NCBI GenBank assembly: GCA_963701125.1 | Contig: OY969568.1 | Location: 3,571,108-3,635,107, forward strand | Direction of reading: 5' to 3' | DNA: 64,000 bases | DNA from: an uncultured Actinomycetes bacterium | Lineage (GTDB): Bacteria > Actinomycetota > Thermoleophilia > Gaiellales > JAICJC01 | Shown here: positions 39,268 to 45,919 of the stretch, one piece after another | How the letters are laid out: every line of letters starts with the position of its first letter | Numbering within the stretch: position 1 is the stretch's first letter | Made by a program: the position numbers and the translations under genes | Notes under the pieces: model-generated | The model's input: only the letters and a program-made list of their open reading frames with translations | Database searches by the model: none | What the model was told of the DNA's origin: nothing

Positions 39268-40704
39268 CTAGTCCCCGAGCTCCGCGCGGCGGCGCACGAC
39301 GTAGGCATCGAGCTGCGCCCGCACGTCGGGATCGAGCGGCGGCTGCTCGTAGGACTCGATCGTCGCGCGCCAGATCTCGCCCGCCCGCTCGGCCGCGTCG
39401 CGCGAGCCCTTCGACTTCCACCGCTCGAAGTTCTCGGTCGAGGACAGGAGCGGCCGGTAGAAGCAGGTGCGGAACCGCTCCAGCGTGTGCGCGGCGCCCA
39501 GGAAGTGCCCGCCGTGGCCGACCTCCTCATGCGCACCGTAGGCCAGGCTCGCCTCGTCCACCTCGAGCGGCGTGAACTCCTCCTGCAGCATCCGCAGCAT
39601 CTCGATGTCGATGATGAACTTCTCGTAGGAGGCCACGAGCCCGGACTCGAGCCAGCCGGCCGCGTGCTCGACGTAGTTGGCGCCCGCCAGGAACGCGGGC
39701 AGCATCGTGTTCAGCCCCTCGTAGGCCGCCTGCGCGTCAGGCGTCTGGCTCGACGTGAGGAAGCCGCCGCCGGCCCGCCACGGCACGCCGAAGCGGCGCG
39801 CCACCTGGCCCGAGCAGAGCAGGCCCATCGCCGACTCGGGGCCGCCGAACCCGGGCGATCCCGACTGCATGTCGGTGTGGGACAGGAACGAGCCGAGCAC
39901 GACGGGCGCGCCCGGGCGCACGAGCTGCGCGAGCGCCAGGCCGGCCAGCGCCTCGGCCGTCTGCTGCACAAGCGCCGCCGGCACCGATGCCGGCGACATC
40001 GCGCCCATGAGCAGGAACGGCGTGATGATCACCGCCTGCCCGGCCTCGGCGTAGATCGTCATCGCCTCGAGCATGCGGGTGTCGTAGCGAAGCGGCGAGT
40101 TGGCGTTGACGACGCCGAACATGCGCACCTCGCCGTCGGCGGGGCCGCCGTGCAGGATGTCGGTCATCGCGACCGAGTCCGCCGCGGCGTCCTGCGAGAT
40201 GACCGCGCCCATGTACGGCTTGTCCGTGAGCGTCTGCACGGCGAGCAGCATGTCGAGGTGACGCGAGTCGAGCGGGCGGTCGCCCGGCTCGCAGCAGAGG
40301 CCGCCCGGCGTGTCCAGCTGGTCGAACGACTGGCTCAGCCGGCAGAACTGCTCGAAGTCGTGCATCGTCGCCTCGCGGCGGTCCGCGCCCTCACGCACGA
40401 ACGGCGGCCCCTGGGTGGGGGCGAAGAACATGTGCCGGCCGCCCACGTGCACGCTCCGATCCGGGTTGCGCGCGACCAGCGGGAACTCCCGCGGCGTCGT
40501 CGCGACCTGCTCGAGCACCCAGTCGGGGTCGAAGCGCACGACCGAGTCCTCGACCCGCTGCCCCGCGGCGCGGAAGCGATCGAGCGACTCGTCGTGCAGG
40601 AACTCGATCCCGATGTCGGACAGGAGCCGCCGCCAGCCGCGCTCGAGCACGGCCATCGCATCCTCCGAGAGGATGTCGTAGCGGGGCATGTCGTTTCGGA
40701 ACAT
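39268..40704 (-). CDS. MttB-superfamily methyltransferase, non-pyrrolysine type (quaternary-amine/betaine methyltransferase-like)
   Basis: 478 aa with an uninterrupted frame and no internal TAG. Similar to trimethylamine methyltransferase family proteins along its whole length (from memory). Its start overlaps the kinase stop. Confidence 0.75.
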   Translation of the reverse strand: MFRNDMPRYDILSEDAMAVLERGWRRLLSDIGIEFLHDESLDRFRAAGQRVEDSVVRFDPDWVLEQVATTPREFPLVARNPDRSVHVGGRHMFFAPTQGPPFVREGADRREATMHDFEQFCRLSQSFDQLDTPGGLCCEPGDRPLDSRHLDMLLAVQTLTDKPYMGAVISQDAAADSVAMTDILHGGPADGEVRMFGVVNANSPLRYDTRMLEAMTIYAEAGQAVIITPFLLMGAMSPASVPAALVQQTAEALAGLALAQLVRPGAPVVLGSFLSHTDMQSGSPGFGGPESAMGLLCSGQVARRFGVPWRAGGGFLTSSQTPDAQAAYEGLNTMLPAFLAGANYVEHAAGWLESGLVASYEKFIIDIEMLRMLQEEFTPLEVDEASLAYGAHEEVGHGGHFLGAAHTLERFRTCFYRPLLSSTENFERWKSKGSRDAAERAGEIWRATIESYEQPPLDPDVRAQLDAYVVRRRAELGD

Positions 40705-42095
40705 CAGCGCACCGGCCCGCGGCCGGCGGCGGGGAGGGAGATGCCGAAGGTGGTGGATCCCGGCTGCGATCGCACCGTGATCGCACCTCGGTGGCCGATG
40801 ACGATCCGCCGCGCGATGTCGAGGCCGAGGCCGCTGCCGTCGCCGACCGACTTCGTCGTGAAGAAGGGCTCGAAGATGCGCGACTGGACCTCGGCGGGAA
40901 TGCCGGGGCCGTCGTCTGCGATCTCGACCAGGATGTCGTCGCCGAGCGCCCGGGTCGTGATCGTGATCGTGCCCCTGGGCCGGCCGGCGAGGGCGTCGAG
41001 GGCGTTCGTGAGCAGGTTCGTCCACACCTGGTTCAGCTCGGAGCCGTGCACGGTCACGGGCGGAAGGGTGCGGTCATAGCTGCGCTCGATCTTCACGGGC
41101 TCGTGCTTGATGCGGAACTTCAGCATGGTCAGCGTGCTGTCCAGGCCGTCGTGCACATCGACGTCCTCGACCGCGGCCCGGTCCATGTGCGTGTAGTCCT
41201 TGATCGCGGCCACGAGCTCGGAGATCCGCGCGGTCGACTCGTGCAGCTCGCCGACGAGCGTGTGGGCGGTGAGCGACGCCGCCACCCACTCGAGGGCCGG
41301 GCCGGTCGCCGGCCCCGCGGCCGTCGCCACCTGCTCGAGCCACTCCTCGTTCAGGCAGGCCCGGGCCAGCGGCTCGGCCAGCCGCCAGCCCTCCTGGCCC
41401 ATGTCGTCGAGCAGGACGGCCAGCCGGTCTTCGCGGTCGGCCGAGGCGACCGAGCCGTCGCCCTCGCCGGCGCGCGCGAGCGCGGACTGCTGCAGCGCGA
41501 CCAGCCGGGCGGCGTCCTCGCGCTCGACGCCGCTCGACACGAAATGGTGCACCGTGTCCTGCAGCGTCGCGAGCGCCTCACCGAGCTCGGTGGCCGTCCG
41601 CCGTGCCGCCGCCGCCGGGTTGTTCAGCTCGTGGGCGAGGCCGGCCGAGAGCGTGCCGAGCGCCGCGAGCTTCTCCTGCTGGCGCACGAGCGCGTCGGCC
41701 GCCTGGGCGATCGGCGCGATCAGGCGCACGGCGGTGCGCATCGCGCTCGGCGTTTCGCGCAGGAACGATCGGAACGTGGCGGCGTCCCAGGTCAGGAGCC
41801 GCACGTCGGTCGTCGCGTGGCCGCTCGCGAGCAGGGGGTCGCCGGTGAGCAGGTTGGCGGCGCCCGCGTAGGTGGGCGCCTCGCGCTCGCTCAGGAACAC
41901 GTCGACGCCGTTGATGCAGCGCGTCCACTCGACGCGGCCTTCGACGACGACCGAGAAGCGCTCGAGCTTCGTGCCTTCGGTGAAGAGCGCCTCGCCGATC
42001 CCGAGGTGCGCCTCCTGTCCTTGCGCGGCGAACGCGGTCAGCGCGTCGGGATCGACGCCCTCGAAGAGGTCGAGCTGCTCGAGCACCTCGATCAC
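40704..42095 (-). CDS. Sensor histidine kinase with an N-terminal CAP/cNMP-binding-like domain
   Basis: CAP beta-barrel-like N-terminus, H-box LAHELNNP, N box WTNLLTNALDA, G boxes DDGPGI and GSGLGL. No TM segment. Confidence 0.8.
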   Translation of the reverse strand: MIEVLEQLDLFEGVDPDALTAFAAQGQEAHLGIGEALFTEGTKLERFSVVVEGRVEWTRCINGVDVFLSEREAPTYAGAANLLTGDPLLASGHATTDVRLLTWDAATFRSFLRETPSAMRTAVRLIAPIAQAADALVRQQEKLAALGTLSAGLAHELNNPAAAARRTATELGEALATLQDTVHHFVSSGVEREDAARLVALQQSALARAGEGDGSVASADREDRLAVLLDDMGQEGWRLAEPLARACLNEEWLEQVATAAGPATGPALEWVAASLTAHTLVGELHESTARISELVAAIKDYTHMDRAAVEDVDVHDGLDSTLTMLKFRIKHEPVKIERSYDRTLPPVTVHGSELNQVWTNLLTNALDALAGRPRGTITITTRALGDDILVEIADDGPGIPAEVQSRIFEPFFTTKSVGDGSGLGLDIARRIVIGHRGAITVRSQPGSTTFGISLPAAGRGPVR

Positions 42096-43777
42096 ACGGC
42101 CGCCGCCAGGTACTCGTGCACGAAGTGCACCGCCATCGAGCCCTCGCCGACGGCCGAGGCGACCCGCTTCATCGACTCGCTGCGCACGTCGCCGGCCACG
42201 AACACGCCCGCCATGCTCGTCTCGAGCAGGTAGGGGTCGCGGTCGAGGCGCCAGCGCGGCCGCACCTCCTCGCGCAGCACCTCGGCGCCCGCGAGCACGA
42301 AGCCGCGCCCGTCGCGGGCGACGCCGTCGGGCAGCCAGTCGGTCTGCGGGCGGGCGCCGATGAAGACGAACATGGCCGCGAGTTCGACCTCGTCCTCGGC
42401 GCCGGTGACCGTGTCGCGCACCGTGACCCGCTCGAGCGAGTCGCTGCCGTGGGCCGCGGTGACCTCGCCGTTCAGGCGCACGTCGATGTTGGGCGTGGCC
42501 TCGATGGTGTCGATCAGGTAGCGCGACATGCTCTTCGCAAGGCTCGTGCCGCGGTAGAGCAGCGTCACCCGCTGGGCGTAGCCGGCGAAGTAGATCGCCG
42601 CCTGGCCGGCCGAGTTGGCGCCGCCCACGACGACGACGTGCTCGTCGCGGCACGACACGCCCTCGCTGCGCGAGCCGCCGTAGTAGACGCCGCGGCCCGA
42701 GAGCGCCTCGATGCCGGGGGCGTCGAGCCGGCGGTAGTCCACGCCGGTGGCGATGATGATGGCCTTGGCGCCCAGCTGGTCGTGCCCGGCCAGGTGCACG
42801 AGCCGCGCCGGGCCGCGCTCGTCGATCGCCGTCACCTCCTGCACGGTCAGGAGCTCGGCGCCGAAGCGGGTCGCCTGCGCCGTCGCACGGCGGGCGAGGT
42901 CGGCGCCGGAGAGCCCCACCGGGAAGCCGAGGTAGTTCTCGATCCGCGAGCTCTGACCGGCCTGGCCGCCGGGCGCCTCGCGCTCGATCAGCGCGGTGCG
43001 CAGGCCCTCGGACGCGCCGTACACCGCCGCGGCGAGGCCGGCCGGGCCGCCGCCCACGATCACGAGGTCGTAGAACTCGAGCTCGGCGCGGCGGCGGACA
43101 CCGGCCCGCTCGGCCAGCTCCGCCACCGTCGGCCCGTGCAGCACGCCGCCGTCGGGGAAGAGCACGAGCGGCAGCGCCGCCGACCCGTCGGCCGCCGCCA
43201 GCAGGCGTTGCCCCTCGTCGTCGCGCTCGACGTCGAGCCAGCGGTAGGGCACCTGGTTTCGGGCCAGGAAGTCGCGGGCGTCATGTGACTCGCGCGACCA
43301 CCGGTGGCCGACCACCTGGATGCGGTCGGCGTCGGCGGGCGCGTCGGCCTTCCAGGCGTCGAGCAGGTCGTCGAGCACCGGGTAGAGCTGCTCGTCGGGC
43401 GGATCCCACGGCTTCAGCAGATAGTGGTCGAGCGAGACGCGGTTGATCGCGTCGATGGCCGCCTGGGTGTCGGCATACGCGGTGAGGAGCACGCGTTTGG
43501 CCTCGGGGGCGACGCGCATCGCCTCCTCGAGGAACTCGACGCCCGACATCTCCGGCATGCGCTGGTCGGCGAGCAGGAGCGCGACCGCGGCACCGCGCAG
43601 CTTTGACTCGCGGACGGCTGCGAGCGCCGCCTCGCCGCTCTCGGCGCGCAGGATGCGATAGTCGCGCCCGTAGCGCCGGCGCAGGTCGCGCTCGACCGCC
43701 CGCGCGACCGACGGCTCGTCGTCGACGGCGAGCAGCACGGGGCGTGCGCCCTCGCGCGTCTCGGGAACGCTGCTCAC
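42092..43777 (-). CDS. Fused response-regulator receiver / thioredoxin-fold linker / thioredoxin-reductase-like flavoprotein
   Basis: Receiver (LLAVDDEP, LLLADQRMPEMSG, LLTAY, KPW), two Rossmann motifs (VIVGGGPAGL, VVVGGANSAG) and GVFVAGDV. The whole protein has a single Cys and no CxxC. Confidence 0.85.
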   Translation of the reverse strand: MSSVPETREGARPVLLAVDDEPSVARAVERDLRRRYGRDYRILRAESGEAALAAVRESKLRGAAVALLLADQRMPEMSGVEFLEEAMRVAPEAKRVLLTAYADTQAAIDAINRVSLDHYLLKPWDPPDEQLYPVLDDLLDAWKADAPADADRIQVVGHRWSRESHDARDFLARNQVPYRWLDVERDDEGQRLLAAADGSAALPLVLFPDGGVLHGPTVAELAERAGVRRRAELEFYDLVIVGGGPAGLAAAVYGASEGLRTALIEREAPGGQAGQSSRIENYLGFPVGLSGADLARRATAQATRFGAELLTVQEVTAIDERGPARLVHLAGHDQLGAKAIIIATGVDYRRLDAPGIEALSGRGVYYGGSRSEGVSCRDEHVVVVGGANSAGQAAIYFAGYAQRVTLLYRGTSLAKSMSRYLIDTIEATPNIDVRLNGEVTAAHGSDSLERVTVRDTVTGAEDEVELAAMFVFIGARPQTDWLPDGVARDGRGFVLAGAEVLREEVRPRWRLDRDPYLLETSMAGVFVAGDVRSESMKRVASAVGEGSMAVHFVHEYLAAAV

Positions 43778-44055
43778 GCCCCTCCCGCGACGGTGAAGAC
43801 CACCTCGTCGGTGTAGCACCAGAACCAGTCCTCGCCTGGCTCGGCCGACCGGATCACGACGTGGCCGCTCGAGTTGACGTGCGCGGTCGCGTGCCGGTTG
43901 GGCGAGGAGTCGCAGCAGCCGATGTGGCCGCAGGTCGTGCACATCCGCAGGTGCAGCCAGCGCGAGCCCATCGCCAGGCACTCCTCGCACCCGGCGATCG
44001 TCTCCGGAAGCTCGGTCACCTCGATCTGATCCATATGGGTGCAGGTTTCCGCCAC
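43774..44055 (-). CDS. UBP-type zinc-finger protein
   Basis: CTHMD...CEECL...WLHLRMCTTCGHIGCCDSSPNRHATAH...GH pattern. Its TGA stop overlaps the GTG start of the downstream RR/TrxR-like gene (GTGA). Confidence 0.8.
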   Translation of the reverse strand: MAETCTHMDQIEVTELPETIAGCEECLAMGSRWLHLRMCTTCGHIGCCDSSPNRHATAHVNSSGHVVIRSAEPGEDWFWCYTDEVVFTVAGGA

Positions 44056-44141
44056 GTGGGCCCCCCTTGTCGGCGCGGTCGAATTCTTCGACCGATGCCT
44101 ACCACAACCGCGGCGGGGATGCGCGGCGGATCCCGGCGTTT

Positions 44142-44178
44142 GGGGACTGTCCCCGGTTTGCGGGGACAGTCCCCGGTT
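44142..44178. repeat. Doublet of the 13-bp palindrome: GGGGACTGTCCCCggtt tgc GGGGACAGTCCCCggtt
   Basis: Read directly. It lies between the MCP 3' end and the zf-UBP operon start. Confidence 0.9.
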
Positions 44179-44188
44179 CTCGGGATGC

Positions 44189-45919
44189 CTAGAGGCGGAA
44201 GTGCGAGACGAGCCGCTCGAGCGTCTGTGCGGTGGCCGCGAGCTCCTGCGACGAGGCGTTGATCTGCTGTGCGGCGGCGCTCGTCTCCTCGGCCGACGAC
44301 GAGACCTCCTGCGTGGCGGCAGAGGACTCCTCGGCGACGACCGCGACCTGCGACGAGGACGCCGCGATCTGCTCGATCCGGTGAGTCATGTCCTCGACGG
44401 CGGCGCCGATCTGGCCGAAGGCCGTGCGCGCCTCGGCCACGATGGCCGCGCTCTCGTCGCTGCGCTGGGCGCTCTCGGTGGCGGCGGCGACCGTGCGCTG
44501 CGTCTCGACCTGGATCTCGCCGATCAGGCCGGCGATCTGCTCGGCGGCGCGGCGCGACTCCTCGGCCAGCTTGCGCACCTCCTCGGCGACGACGGCGAAG
44601 CCGCGGCCCTGCTCGCCGGCGCGGGCGGCCTCGATGGCCGCGTTGAGCGCCAGCAGGTTCGTCTGGCCGGCGATGCCCGAGATCGTCTCGACGATCCCGC
44701 CGATCCGCTCCGAGCGGTTCGCCAGCTCGCCGATGGCATCGGCCATGTCGGCCGACGACTGGCGGACGGCCGCCATCGCACCGGTGGCCTGCTCGGCGGC
44801 GCCGACGCCGCGGGCGGCCACCTCGCTCGCCTGCCCGGCGGCCGTGGCGGACTCGGACGCGAGATCGCGGGTCGTCTGCACCATCGCCAGCTGGCGGTCG
44901 GCGCCGCCGGCGACGTTCTGGACAGCGCGCGCGATGTCGTCGACGGCCCGGCTCGTCTCGCTCGACGTGGCGGTCAGCTCCTGCGATGCCCCGCTCAGGT
45001 GCGTCGCCGCGCCCGACACCTCGGTGATCACGTTTCGGAGCGCCTCGACCATCCGGGCGACCGCGTGCGAGAGGACGTCGTGCTCGGACTTCGGCGTGAC
45101 CTCGACCGCCAGGTCGCCGCCGGCGACCCGTGTCACCGAGTCGGCGAGCTCCTGCAGGTAGGCCATCATCCGGCCGAACGCGCGGGTGGCGTCGCCGAGC
45201 TCGTCGGTGTTCTCGGTGTTCACGTCGTGGTCGAGCTCGCCCAGCGCGATGCCCTCGGCCGCTGCCAGCAGCCGCTGGGCGCGCCGGCCGATGCGGCGGG
45301 TGAGCAGCGTCGCGAGCGCCGTCGCCGTCACGAGGGCCGTCAGGCTGAACAGCGCGATTGCCCACTCCGCGTGGCTCGAGGTGCTCCCGGCCTGCGCCGT
45401 CAGCGTCGTCTCACGCGTCCGAAGCGTCGACTGATAGGCGGTGAGCGCCTCGACGATGCCGTCGCTGGCCTGGTCGGCGGAGCCGTTGAGAATCGCCTTG
45501 GCCTGCGCATGGCGGCCGGCGGTGAGCAGTCCGAACATCCGCGTGCCGACGGCGTTGGAATGGGCGACGGCGGCGTCGATGCGTGCGACCGCGGCGTGGT
45601 CGCTGCCGGTGCCCGCCAGCGCGTCCAGCCGGTGGAGCGCCCGCATGAAGGTCGTGTGATCGGCCGCGTAGTCGGCCTGCGCGCTCGCGGTCGAGGCGAG
45701 CACCGCGCGCGTCTGCGAGAAGTGCATGTCGGCGGCCGCAGAGCGGACGTCGTCCGCAGCGATCAGGCGCGGGGTCACCGAGCGGTCGACGCTGTTCGAG
45801 ACCGAAGTCAGCTCCGAGAGGCCCCACCATGCGACGCCGGAGAGCCCGAGCAGCAGGAGCACGACGACACCGAAGCTCAGGCCGAGCTTCGACCTGATCG
45901 TCCCTGCGATGGCTGGCAT
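44189..45919 (-). CDS. Methyl-accepting chemotaxis protein (4HB-type sensor, HAMP, MA domain)
   Basis: The highly conserved signalling hairpin [40 protein letters not shown], with two TM segments. ATG at 45919 follows ggag. Confidence 0.9.

What the first reader, a model, noticed from the sequence alone, without database searches (positions are those of the whole stretch)
42092..43777. Response-regulator receiver fused to a thioredoxin-reductase-like flavoprotein with no CxxC anywhere
The receiver has all the phospho-acceptor signatures: DD, D in LLLADQRMP, T in LLTAY, and K in KPW. The output is a two-Rossmann TrxR-like module. Where TrxR has C-A-T-C-D, this protein reads Y-G-G-S-R-S-E-G-V-S-C (42650-42691), and the whole 561-aa protein contains one cysteine. 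The ~70-aa linker (IQVVGHRWSRESHDARDFL...LPLVLFPDG) looks like a glutaredoxin/thioredoxin fold, but its CxxC position reads W-S-R-E-S-H. It therefore cannot work as a dithiol-disulfide reductase. A phosphorylation-gated NAD(P)H:flavin or ferredoxin-type oxidoreductase is more plausible, and that is an unusual two-component output.
Basis: partly seen in the sequence, partly recalled or inferred. Interest (0 to 1): 0.6.

Follow-up and report, generated by a model that had tools for sequence, protein, structure and literature searches.

The report
Cysteine-less thioredoxin-reductase-like response regulator
This gene encodes a two-component response regulator whose output is a glutaredoxin-like domain fused to a thioredoxin-reductase-like flavoprotein, both without their redox cysteines; it belongs to a very widespread, already catalogued family whose chemistry has never been established.

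Summary
Window 42092-43777 (minus strand) is an intact 561-aa gene. It encodes a canonical receiver (D19, D20, D71, T99, K122), a Cys-free NrdH/glutaredoxin-fold domain (residues ~152-226, WSRES where CxxC would be) and a TrxR-fold FAD/NAD(P)H module. In that module the C-x-x-C-D centre is replaced by Y-G-G-S-R-S-E. The protein has one, non-conserved cysteine (C376).

The loss is family-wide, not a frameshift. All 61 intact orthologue frames from about ten phyla, and the 60 diverse representatives inspected, lack the active-site CxxC, and some have no cysteine at all.

The gene is translationally coupled (GTGA overlaps) to an upstream UBP-type zinc-finger gene and to a downstream soluble histidine kinase with a CAP-like sensor domain. 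The kinase is adjacent in 54 of 56 orthologues that carry the full DDDTK receiver signature. The zinc-finger gene co-occurs with the family.

This architecture is already listed in response-regulator censuses (REC-TrxB type, e.g. S. coelicolor SCO7298). This scan has also met the family on other DNA, in at least 62 genomes. Function is untested.

Most likely reading: a phosphorylation-gated NAD(P)H flavoenzyme with a non-disulfide acceptor. A redox-sensing pseudoenzyme is the main rival. Verdict: an ordinary new member of a known, uncharacterised kind, of moderate interest.

The parts
43774..44055 (-). UBP-type zinc-finger protein gene (93 aa). Its stop overlaps the regulator's GTG start (GTGA).
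   Evidence: Pfam zf-UBP, E = 6.7e-12. The closest solved homologue is 2IDA, E = 2.5e-30. A homologue is adjacent in 25 of 80 related loci. It is present in 33 of 46 family-positive genomes against 10 of 105 family-negative genomes in a phylum sample.
42092..43777 (-). Response regulator gene, 561 aa: REC + NrdH/Grx-like domain + TrxR-like flavoprotein.
43343..43741 (-). Receiver domain, residues 13-145, with phospho-acceptor D71 and a long alpha-5 helix (127-145).
   Evidence: Response_reg 54.5 bits. The DDDTK signature is conserved in 59 orthologues. Secondary structure comes from the AF2 model.
43100..43324 (-). Cys-free NrdH/glutaredoxin-fold domain, residues 152-226. It has W160-S-R-E-S164 at the CxxC position and P203 at the cis-Pro position.
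   Evidence: AF2 topology is b-a-b-a-b-b-a. Foldseek matches BC3987, cGrx1 and NrdH at TM 0.7-0.85. S161 and P203 are nearly invariant or invariant.
42104..43075 (-). TrxR-fold FAD/NAD(P)H module, residues 235-558. It has GGGPAG (242-247) and GGANSAGQ (385-392). R409 is kept, but TrxR's HRR..R reads YRG..A here.
   Evidence: Pyr_redox_2 1.8e-37. TIGR01292 scores 219.5 bits, below its 343.45 cutoff. Foldseek gives TMt 0.93 to TrxRs in the FR conformation.
42659..42691 (-). Former redox-centre segment G363-V-Y-Y-G-G-S-R-S-E-G373. The family motif is G-x-G-V-[YF]-Y-G-A-x-x-[ST]-E-A.
   Evidence: HMMER alignments to TrxRs. Y366 is present in 82/87 and E372 in 77/87 representatives.
40704..42095 (-). 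Cognate soluble histidine kinase, 463 aa: CAP-like (cNMP_binding) domain + H-box (H155) + HATPase_c. Its GTG start overlaps the regulator's stop (GTGA).
   Evidence: Pfam cNMP_binding 5.6e-09 and HATPase_c 1.1e-24. The gene junction is shown. A homologous kinase is adjacent in 58 of 80 loci, and in 54 of 56 DDDTK-type loci. The H, N, G1, F and G2 boxes are invariant in 47 orthologues.

Best explanation
The gene encodes the response regulator of a soluble two-component system. The adjacent kinase has a CAP-like sensor domain that lacks the usual cyclic-nucleotide contacts. It senses an unknown ligand and phosphorylates D71 of the receiver.

The output is a fossil 'reductase plus redoxin' pair: an NrdH-like domain fused to a TrxR-like FAD/NAD(P)H module. 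Both CxxC centres are replaced by Ser/Gly. The FAD site, the pyridine-nucleotide site and the former acid catalyst (Asp, here E372) are all strongly conserved.

Most likely the module still takes a hydride from NAD(P)H onto FAD and passes electrons to a non-disulfide acceptor. NAD(P)H specificity is probably relaxed, because two of the three 2'-phosphate arginines are lost. Receiver phosphorylation would act through the long alpha-5 helix and the NrdH-like pseudo-substrate domain. It would gate the rotation between the FAD and NAD(P)H domains on which TrxR-type enzymes depend.

The acceptor is unknown. The co-occurring UBP-type zinc-finger metalloprotein is the best genomic candidate as partner or acceptor. 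Small acceptors such as O2, quinones or metal chelates are alternatives.

Shown here: the domain anatomy, the folds, the absence of cysteines, the conservation of cofactor motifs, and the operon and kinase pairing. Inferred: phosphotransfer, gating, catalysis and the acceptor.
For: - Canonical receiver with an invariant acidic pocket and lysine.
- A kinase with intact H/N/G boxes is adjacent in 54/56 DDDTK-type orthologues and is translationally coupled here.
- FAD and NAD(P)H motifs are invariant across 87 diverse representatives: G242/G244/G247, G270-G271-Q272, G385, N388-S389, R409.
- A family-specific motif at the ex-CxxC site keeps an acid (E372, 77/87) and Ser/Thr (59/87) where TrxR has Asp and the flavin-proximal Cys.
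- Further family-specific invariant residues (M417-S-x-Y-L421, W481, W509, R513, P515) argue for a conserved site that TrxR does not have.
- The AF2 model is confident (pLDDT 88.3, pTM 0.75). Its reductase part superposes on TrxRs in the flavin-reducing conformation (TMt 0.93 against 0.6 for the FO form).
- The linker is NrdH-like, that is, like a natural TrxR substrate.
- The same NrdH-like + TrxR-like module occurs behind cNMP-binding domains, behind pseudo-receivers, and alone. It therefore behaves as a regulated effector cassette.
- A cNMP-type relative oxidised NADPH and NADH with DTNB (PMC6544261).
- zf-UBP co-occurs with the family: 33/46 against 10/105 genomes.
Against: - No member of the receiver-type family has been assayed.
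- No acceptor can be named from sequence.
- zf-UBP is adjacent in only 25/80 loci, and its co-occurrence is not corrected for phylogeny or genome size.
- More than half of the wider family have receivers without the acceptor Asp. Phosphorylation therefore cannot be the general control mechanism of the cassette.
- Conserved cofactor sites are equally expected for a redox sensor.
Confidence: 0.5

Rival explanations
1. Redox-sensing pseudoenzyme. The FAD/NAD(P)H module does not turn over a substrate. It reports the NAD(P)H/NAD(P)+ or flavin redox state through the FO/FR domain rotation. That state is integrated with receiver phosphorylation to control a protein partner (for example the zf-UBP protein) or the kinase itself.
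For: - Both redox centres are systematically replaced by Ser/Gly while the overall reductase-redoxin architecture is retained. This is typical of repurposed scaffolds.
- Many family members carry pseudo-receivers, which suggests structural or allosteric roles.
- There is tight phyletic coupling to a small zinc-finger protein and to no enzyme or substrate-pathway gene. Only the kinase and zf-UBP recur in neighbourhoods.
Against: - A new, strongly conserved motif (Y366, S/T371, E372) and an invariant insertion (W509, R513, P515) sit where a substrate site would be.
- A cNMP-type relative showed real NAD(P)H turnover in vitro (PMC6544261).
Confidence: 0.25
2. TrxR-type ferredoxin/flavodoxin (or rubredoxin-like metalloprotein) NAD(P)H reductase. 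In this reading the Cys-rich zf-UBP protein could be the one-electron acceptor.
For: - It lacks CxxC, as YumC-type FNRs do.
- A small Cys/His metalloprotein gene is coupled to it.
Against: - Sequence matches to TrxR-type FNRs are weak (3lzw 3.4e-11, 2zbw 1.6e-15) compared with TrxR (1.4e-44).
- The sequence ends with the last TrxR helix, so there is no C-terminal extension.
- No ferredoxin or flavodoxin gene recurs nearby.
- The closest solved homologue of the zf-UBP is deposited as a hypothetical protein (2IDA). Whether it binds iron is unknown.
Confidence: 0.12
3. A genuine thioredoxin/disulfide reductase that works by a non-classical route, as most database names and the ATII-TrxR paper imply.
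For: - JGI and some NCBI records name homologues 'thioredoxin reductase'.
- ATII-TrxR, a cNMP-domain relative, was reported to reduce DTNB and to oxidise NADPH in a thioredoxin/insulin assay (PMC6544261).
- S. coelicolor trxB3 (SCO7298) is induced by polysulfide (PMC9952706).
Against: - There is no CxxC in either domain, and some family members have no cysteine at all.
- TIGR01292 scores 219.5 bits, below its 343.45 cutoff.
- The genome has a canonical TrxB with CAVC.
- The C. metallidurans homologue to which ATII-TrxR is 87% identical has no CxxC. The paper's insulin assay followed A340 only, so NADPH oxidase activity is not excluded.
Confidence: 0.06
4. Sequencing or assembly artefact: a frameshift hides a real CxxC.
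For: None found.
Against: - The frame is uninterrupted.
- A 93%-identical orthologue (L007) and 60 further intact orthologue frames read the same motif.
Confidence: 0.01

Closest known systems
Low-Mr thioredoxin reductase (TrxB, TIGR01292; e.g. PDB 4gcm, 5uth, 1tde/1f6m)
   Same: The same two-Rossmann FAD/NAD(P)H fold (Foldseek TMt up to 0.93, about 30% identity). The FAD and NAD(P)H glycine motifs are present. An acid residue sits at the Asp139-equivalent position.
   Different: No C-x-x-C. It scores below the family cutoff. HRR..R is reduced to a single Arg. It has a 2-residue insertion (MSxYL motif) and a ~15-residue insertion with invariant W509/R513/P515. It carries N-terminal REC and NrdH-like domains.
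AhpF (alkyl hydroperoxide reductase subunit F; PDB 1hyu, 4o5q)
   Same: Thioredoxin-fold domain(s) are fused N-terminally to a TrxR-like module. AhpF is the best full-length Foldseek E-value (4.3e-35).
   Different: AhpF has two Trx folds and two CxxC centres that relay electrons to AhpC. Here there is one Grx/NrdH fold, no cysteines, and a receiver in front. TIGR03140 scores 173 bits against a cutoff of 502.9.
REC-TrxB-type response regulators of published censuses (Galperin et al., PMC5847659; P2CS 'TrxB' class, S. coelicolor SCO7297/SCO7298, PMC9739842)
   Same: The same architecture and the same pairing with a histidine kinase. Streptomyces orthologues are 59-62% identical and share the RR-HK-zfUBP gene order.
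   Different: None in kind. This is another member, from a Gaiellales-like actinobacterium. The censuses list only the architecture. They do not remark on the missing cysteines or the Grx-like domain.
cNMP-binding-domain TrxR-like proteins (RefSeq 'cyclic nucleotide-binding domain-containing thioredoxin-disulfide reductase'; ATII-TrxR, PMC6544261)
   Same: The same NrdH-like + CxxC-less TrxR-like cassette (46% identity to the paralogue in this genome) with the same family motifs.
   Different: A one-component design, with a CAP-like domain fused directly instead of kinase plus receiver.
TrxR-type ferredoxin-NADP reductases (YumC; PDB 3lzw, 2zbw)
   Same: TrxR fold without a redox disulfide.
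   Different: Much weaker sequence similarity, a different clade, and no C-terminal extension in the sequence.
NrdH-redoxin / BC3987 / mycoredoxin (PDB 3zij, 4fiw, 1h75, 2lqo)
   Same: The linker domain has the same compact glutaredoxin fold (TM 0.7-0.85, rmsd about 1.9 A) and a conserved cis-Pro position (P203).
   Different: CxxC is replaced by S-x-x-S, so it is redox-inactive. It is covalently fused between a receiver and a reductase-like module.

Membership tests
Two-component response regulator (receiver domain, PF00072) | Receiver fold with an acidic pocket (DD), phospho-acceptor Asp, conserved Thr/Ser and Lys | tested here: met
   Response_reg scores 54.5 bits against a cutoff of 30.2. 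D19, D20, D71, T99 and K122 are present. They are invariant or at least 90% conserved in 59 orthologues.
Two-component response regulator (receiver domain, PF00072) | Cognate histidine kinase | tested here: met
   The adjacent, translationally coupled kinase has intact H/N/G boxes. A homologous kinase is adjacent in 54/56 DDDTK-type orthologues.
Two-component response regulator (receiver domain, PF00072) | Actual phosphotransfer to the acceptor Asp | not testable with these tools
   Needs a biochemical assay.
Thioredoxin-disulfide reductase (TrxB, TIGR01292) | Redox-active C-x-x-C next to the flavin | tested here: not met
   TrxR 'CAVCD' aligns to 'GGSRSE'. The protein has a single Cys at 376. 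The family-wide motif is Y-G-A-x-x-[ST]-E-A.
Thioredoxin-disulfide reductase (TrxB, TIGR01292) | Score above the curated equivalog cutoff | tested here: not met
   219.5 bits against a cutoff of 343.45.
Thioredoxin-disulfide reductase (TrxB, TIGR01292) | FAD-binding GxGxxG and NAD(P)H-binding GxGxxA Rossmann motifs; two-domain fold | tested here: met
   GGGPAG (242-247) and GGANSA (385-390) are invariant in the family. Foldseek gives TMt 0.93 to TrxRs.
Thioredoxin-disulfide reductase (TrxB, TIGR01292) | HRRxxxR 2'-phosphate (NADPH) signature | tested here: not met
   It reads Y408-R409-G410...A414. Only R409 is conserved (85/87). Position 410 is Gly in 60/87.
AhpF (TIGR03140) | N-terminal double Trx fold with CxxC plus a TrxR-like module with CxxC; score above cutoff | tested here: not met
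   173 bits against a cutoff of 502.9, and the match covers only the reductase part. There are no cysteines in either centre.
Glutaredoxin/NrdH-redoxin | Trx-type b-a-b-a-b-b-a fold with a cis-Pro before beta-3 | tested here: met
   AF2 topology. Foldseek matches to BC3987, cGrx1 and NrdH. P203 is invariant.
Glutaredoxin/NrdH-redoxin | Active-site CxxC (or at least the N-terminal Cys) | tested here: not met
   The position reads W-S161-R-E-S164. S161 is nearly invariant and no Cys occurs there in 59 orthologues. No Pfam Glutaredoxin hit was found.
TrxR-type ferredoxin-NADP reductase (YumC clade) | Closest sequence kinship to the FNR clade and a C-terminal extension beyond the TrxR fold | tested here: not met
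   FNR chains match at 1e-11 to 1e-15, against 1e-44 for TrxR. The sequence ends at the last TrxR helix.
REC-TrxB-type response regulators (census class) | Receiver fused to a COG0492/TrxB-like domain and paired with a histidine kinase | tested here: met
   The class is described in PMC5847659 and PMC9739842.

The most novel reading that the evidence does not exclude
The Cys-free NrdH-like + TrxR-like cassette is not an oxidoreductase in the usual sense. It is a repurposed 'reductase-substrate' fossil that works as an NAD(P)H/flavin-driven conformational switch. Receiver phosphorylation and pyridine-nucleotide redox state would be integrated through the FO/FR domain rotation. The output would be binding or release of the co-evolving UBP-type zinc-finger protein. 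That would be a new kind of two-component output, based on protein-protein signalling by a pseudo-thioredoxin system.
Probability: 0.15. Interest if true: 0.7.

Novelty: new member of a known kind. Interest (0 to 1): 0.35.

Why it matters
The family is very large: thousands of 50%-identity clusters across about ten phyla, including Streptomyces, Mycobacterium, Nocardia, Nostoc and Burkholderiales. It is routinely mislabelled 'thioredoxin reductase', yet it cannot use the classical disulfide relay.

Establishing its acceptor and how phosphorylation controls it would have three benefits:
- It would correct a widespread annotation.
- It would add an enzymatic (or pseudo-enzymatic) output type to two-component signalling.
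- It would assign a role to bacterial UBP-type zinc-finger proteins.

For this particular window the finding adds only another member. It offers no new principle.

Tried and rejected
- Promoter and terminator consensus scans of 40400-44500 found nothing. This is uninformative at 73% G+C.
- Literature searches for 'REC-TrxB' and for bacterial UBP-type zinc fingers returned nothing useful.
- I tried to tie the published ATII-TrxR to the CxxC-less family through its Cys numbering. The Cys206/Cys223 spacing matches the C. metallidurans homologue, but Cys376/Cys467 do not map exactly. The link therefore rests on the stated 87% identity and on the absence of any CxxC in CH34.
- Model coordinates are not exposed. 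I could not measure where the NrdH-like domain or the receiver docks on the reductase, nor which residues face the flavin.
- Frameshift or artefact was rejected.
- Membership of the YumC-type FNR, AhpF and YpdA families was rejected on scores and motifs.
- Neighbourhood clustering of 3535 ORFs from 80 loci gave no recurrent partner beyond the kinase, zf-UBP and an SDR in 10 loci.
Full report
**Observation.** The finding's coordinates hold an intact minus-strand gene, 42092-43777, of 561 codons. Its GTG start overlaps the TGA of the upstream gene (GTGA). Its own TGA overlaps the GTG of the downstream gene (GTGA). The product has exactly one cysteine, C376.

Pfam finds Response_reg at residues 16-127 (54.5 bits, cutoff 30.2) and Pyr_redox_2 at 236-546 (E = 1.8e-37). 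It finds nothing for residues ~150-230. NCBIfam's TrxB equivalog scores 219.5 bits, below its 343.45 cutoff. AhpF (173 vs 502.9) and YpdA (64 vs 339.9) also fail their cutoffs.

Against PDB sequences the best matches are low-Mr thioredoxin reductases (4gcm, 1.4e-44). The printed alignments put TrxR 'GRGVSYCA-VCDG' opposite 'GRGVYYGGSRSEG'. The Asp that follows it in TrxR is a Glu here (E372).

**Not an artefact, and a family-wide trait.** More than 8000 close homologues exist, the nearest being Gaiellales and other actinobacterial MAG proteins at 81-92% identity. A full-library search found 3683 50%-identity cluster representatives at E <= 1e-30. Among the top representatives none has a CxxC at the TrxR site, and several have no cysteine at all.

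In an 87-sequence alignment the former redox segment is a conserved motif of its own, G-x-G-V-[YF]-Y-G-A-x-x-[ST]-E-A:
- Y366 is present in 82/87.
- E372 is present in 77/87.
- Ser/Thr occupies the flavin-proximal Cys position in 59/87.

The FAD and NAD(P)H glycine motifs and R409 are invariant or nearly so. TrxR's HRR..R signature is reduced to one Arg: G410 in 60/87, and A414 where R181 would be. Family-specific features absent from TrxB include M417-S-x-Y-L421, W481 and a ~15-residue insertion with invariant W509, R513 and P515.

All 61 intact orthologue frames fetched from named genomes lack the active-site CxxC. The genome has a separate canonical TrxB with C-A-V-C.

**The linker.** AlphaFold2 was run with a 59-orthologue alignment. 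It gives a confident full-length model (mean pLDDT 88.3, pTM 0.75). Residues 153-225 fold as beta-alpha-beta-alpha-beta-beta-alpha. The isolated domain folds the same way (pLDDT 85.9).

Foldseek's best PDB matches for the isolated domain are the NrdH-like redoxin BC3987, clostridial cGrx1, NrdH-redoxins and mycoredoxin-1. TM scores are 0.7-0.85 and rmsd is about 1.9 A. The CxxC position reads W-S161-R-E-S164, with S161 nearly invariant. The cis-Pro position (P203) is invariant.

NrdH-type redoxins are natural TrxR substrates (established knowledge). The protein thus looks like a fused reductase-substrate pair in which both redox centres were replaced.

Foldseek on the whole model ranks AhpF first by E-value (a Trx-fold + TrxR-like fusion, 4.3e-35). 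The reductase part superposes best on TrxRs crystallised in the flavin-reducing conformation (5mh4 and 3cty, TMt 0.93). It superposes less well on the FO form (5mjk, 0.63).

**Context.** The upstream gene, 43774-44055, encodes a 93-aa UBP-type zinc-finger protein (PF02148). Its closest solved homologue is 2IDA (E = 2.5e-30). The downstream gene, 40704-42095, encodes a 463-aa soluble histidine kinase with a cNMP_binding (CAP-like) domain and HATPase_c.

In 80 related loci from named genomes a homologous kinase lies next to the flavoprotein gene in 58. The source organisms include:
- Actinomycetota (Streptomyces, Nocardia, Mycobacterium and others)
- Chloroflexia
- Cyanobacteria
- Acidobacteriota
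- Gemmatimonadota
- Bacteroidota
- Burkholderiales
- Verrucomicrobia
- Dormiibacterota

A zf-UBP gene lies within the fetched flanks (up to 6 kb), usually adjacent, in 25 of the 80 loci. No other gene family recurs apart from an SDR in 10 loci.

Among 59 aligned orthologues, 56 carry the complete DDDTK receiver signature, and 54 of those have the adjacent kinase. One of the two exceptions sits at a contig edge. The three divergent sequences with altered signatures have no adjacent kinase. The kinase orthologues keep H155 and the N, G1, F and G2 boxes invariant.

Their CAP-like domain, however, lacks the cyclic-nucleotide contacts. Aligned to M. tuberculosis CRP, 'FGE...RTS' reads 'AGA...LLA' here. 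In 47 orthologues the Glu position is mostly Ala and the Arg position mostly Tyr. The sensed ligand is therefore probably not cAMP or cGMP (inference).

**Family context.** The NrdH-like + CxxC-less TrxR-like cassette occurs behind several kinds of N-terminal domain:
- Receivers: Pfam detects Response_reg in 21/87 representatives.
- cNMP-binding domains: 16/87. This group includes a 763-aa paralogue in this genome that also carries a C-terminal CPFS glutaredoxin and a GNAT domain.
- Receiver-like domains that a family-specific HMM detects in 70/87 representatives. Only 33 of those keep the acceptor Asp, so pseudo-receivers are common.
- No extra domain at all: a 423-aa form on a Cupriavidus basilensis plasmid.

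In a sample of 151 genomes of the phylum, the cassette (E <= 1e-60) was found in 46 and zf-UBP in 43. Thirty-three genomes have both, 13 have the cassette only and 10 have zf-UBP only. Seven of the 13 cassette-only genomes hold a distant ~40%-identity group with shorter open frames. This co-occurrence is strong, but it is not corrected for phylogeny or genome size.

**Literature.**
- The REC + thioredoxin-reductase architecture is mentioned as 'Mycobacterium-like' in Galperin's archaeal census (PMC5847659).
- S. coelicolor SCO7298 is listed as a TrxB-type regulator paired with kinase SCO7297 (PMC9739842).
- SCO7298 was measured as 'trxB3', induced by polysulfide (PMC9952706).
- A cNMP-domain protein, 'ATII-TrxR', 87% identical to a C. 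metallidurans protein, was reported to oxidise NADPH and NADH with DTNB and in a thioredoxin/insulin assay followed at 340 nm (PMC6544261). The likely CH34 counterpart of that protein, a cNMP-type homologue on the CH34 megaplasmid, has no CxxC anywhere and carries the family motif YYWASPVEA. The paper never discusses the missing redox centre.
- I found no study of the receiver-type proteins' chemistry.
- RefSeq names the receiver type 'FAD-dependent oxidoreductase' and the cNMP type 'cyclic nucleotide-binding domain-containing thioredoxin-disulfide reductase'.
- Earlier notes of this scan describe the same family on other DNA, in at least 62 genomes, with the same reading. I used them only as leads, for SCO7298 and P2CS.

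**Interpretation.** Shown: the anatomy, the folds, the missing cysteines, the conserved cofactor sites, the operon coupling and the kinase pairing.

Inferred: the kinase phosphorylates D71. Phosphorylation, acting through the long alpha-5 helix and the NrdH-like pseudo-substrate domain, gates NAD(P)H -> FAD -> acceptor electron flow in a TrxR-like dimer. The acceptor is not a protein disulfide handled by the classical relay.

The main rival is a redox-sensing pseudoenzyme that signals by conformational change to the zf-UBP partner. Less likely are a ferredoxin-type reductase and a non-classical disulfide reductase.

**Verdict.** The thing itself is an ordinary new member of a widespread, catalogued, functionally unassigned class.

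Noticed in passing
L002 1096-3387 (+), i.e. G000:C1 about 1041909-1044200 (outside the window): A paralogue in the same genome is a single 763-aa ORF. It combines a cNMP_binding domain, the same Cys-free NrdH-like linker, a TrxR-like module without CxxC (YAAGPPEQ), a C-terminal monothiol glutaredoxin/GST_N domain (CPFS) and a GNAT acetyltransferase domain.
   Followed up: partly
window 41700-42095 (-), N-terminal domain of the histidine kinase: The kinase's 'cNMP-binding' domain lacks the Glu and Arg that contact the cyclic nucleotide in CRP and PKA. This holds across 47 kinase orthologues, so the ligand is probably not cAMP or cGMP.
   Followed up: partly
window 39268-40704 (-): An MttB-superfamily (trimethylamine-methyltransferase-like) gene starts with an ATG that overlaps the kinase stop (TGATG). 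It may therefore be co-translated with the operon here. It is not conserved next to the system in other genomes.
   Followed up: partly
window about 44142-44176: A 14-bp G+C-rich inverted repeat (CCGGGGACTGTCCCCG-CAAA-CCGGGGACAGTCCCC, minus-strand reading) lies between the stop of the upstream methyl-accepting chemotaxis protein gene and the zf-UBP start. It could be a terminator or an operator. It has no T-run.
   Followed up: no
representatives P0122-P0271 (alignment A1): More than half of the wider family have receiver-like N-terminal domains without the phospho-acceptor Asp (33/70 keep it). Pseudo-receivers are thus common in front of this cassette.
   Followed up: partly
L088 1354-3135 (+), C. 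metallidurans CH34 megaplasmid: This cNMP-type homologue is probably the C. metallidurans protein to which the published 'ATII-TrxR thioredoxin reductase' is 87% identical. It has nine cysteines but no CxxC, and it carries the family motif YYWASPVEA. The published enzyme assignment therefore deserves re-examination (PMC6544261).
   Followed up: partly
L087 2971-4242 (+), Cupriavidus basilensis plasmid pRK1-1: A stand-alone 423-aa form of the cassette (NrdH-like + TrxR-like, with no sensor domain) sits at the end of a branched-chain amino-acid ABC transporter cluster.
   Followed up: no
phylum sample of 151 genomes: UBP-type zinc-finger genes co-occur with the flavoprotein cassette (33 of 46 cassette-positive against 10 of 105 cassette-negative genomes), even where the two are not adjacent. 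The figures are not corrected for phylogeny.
   Followed up: partly
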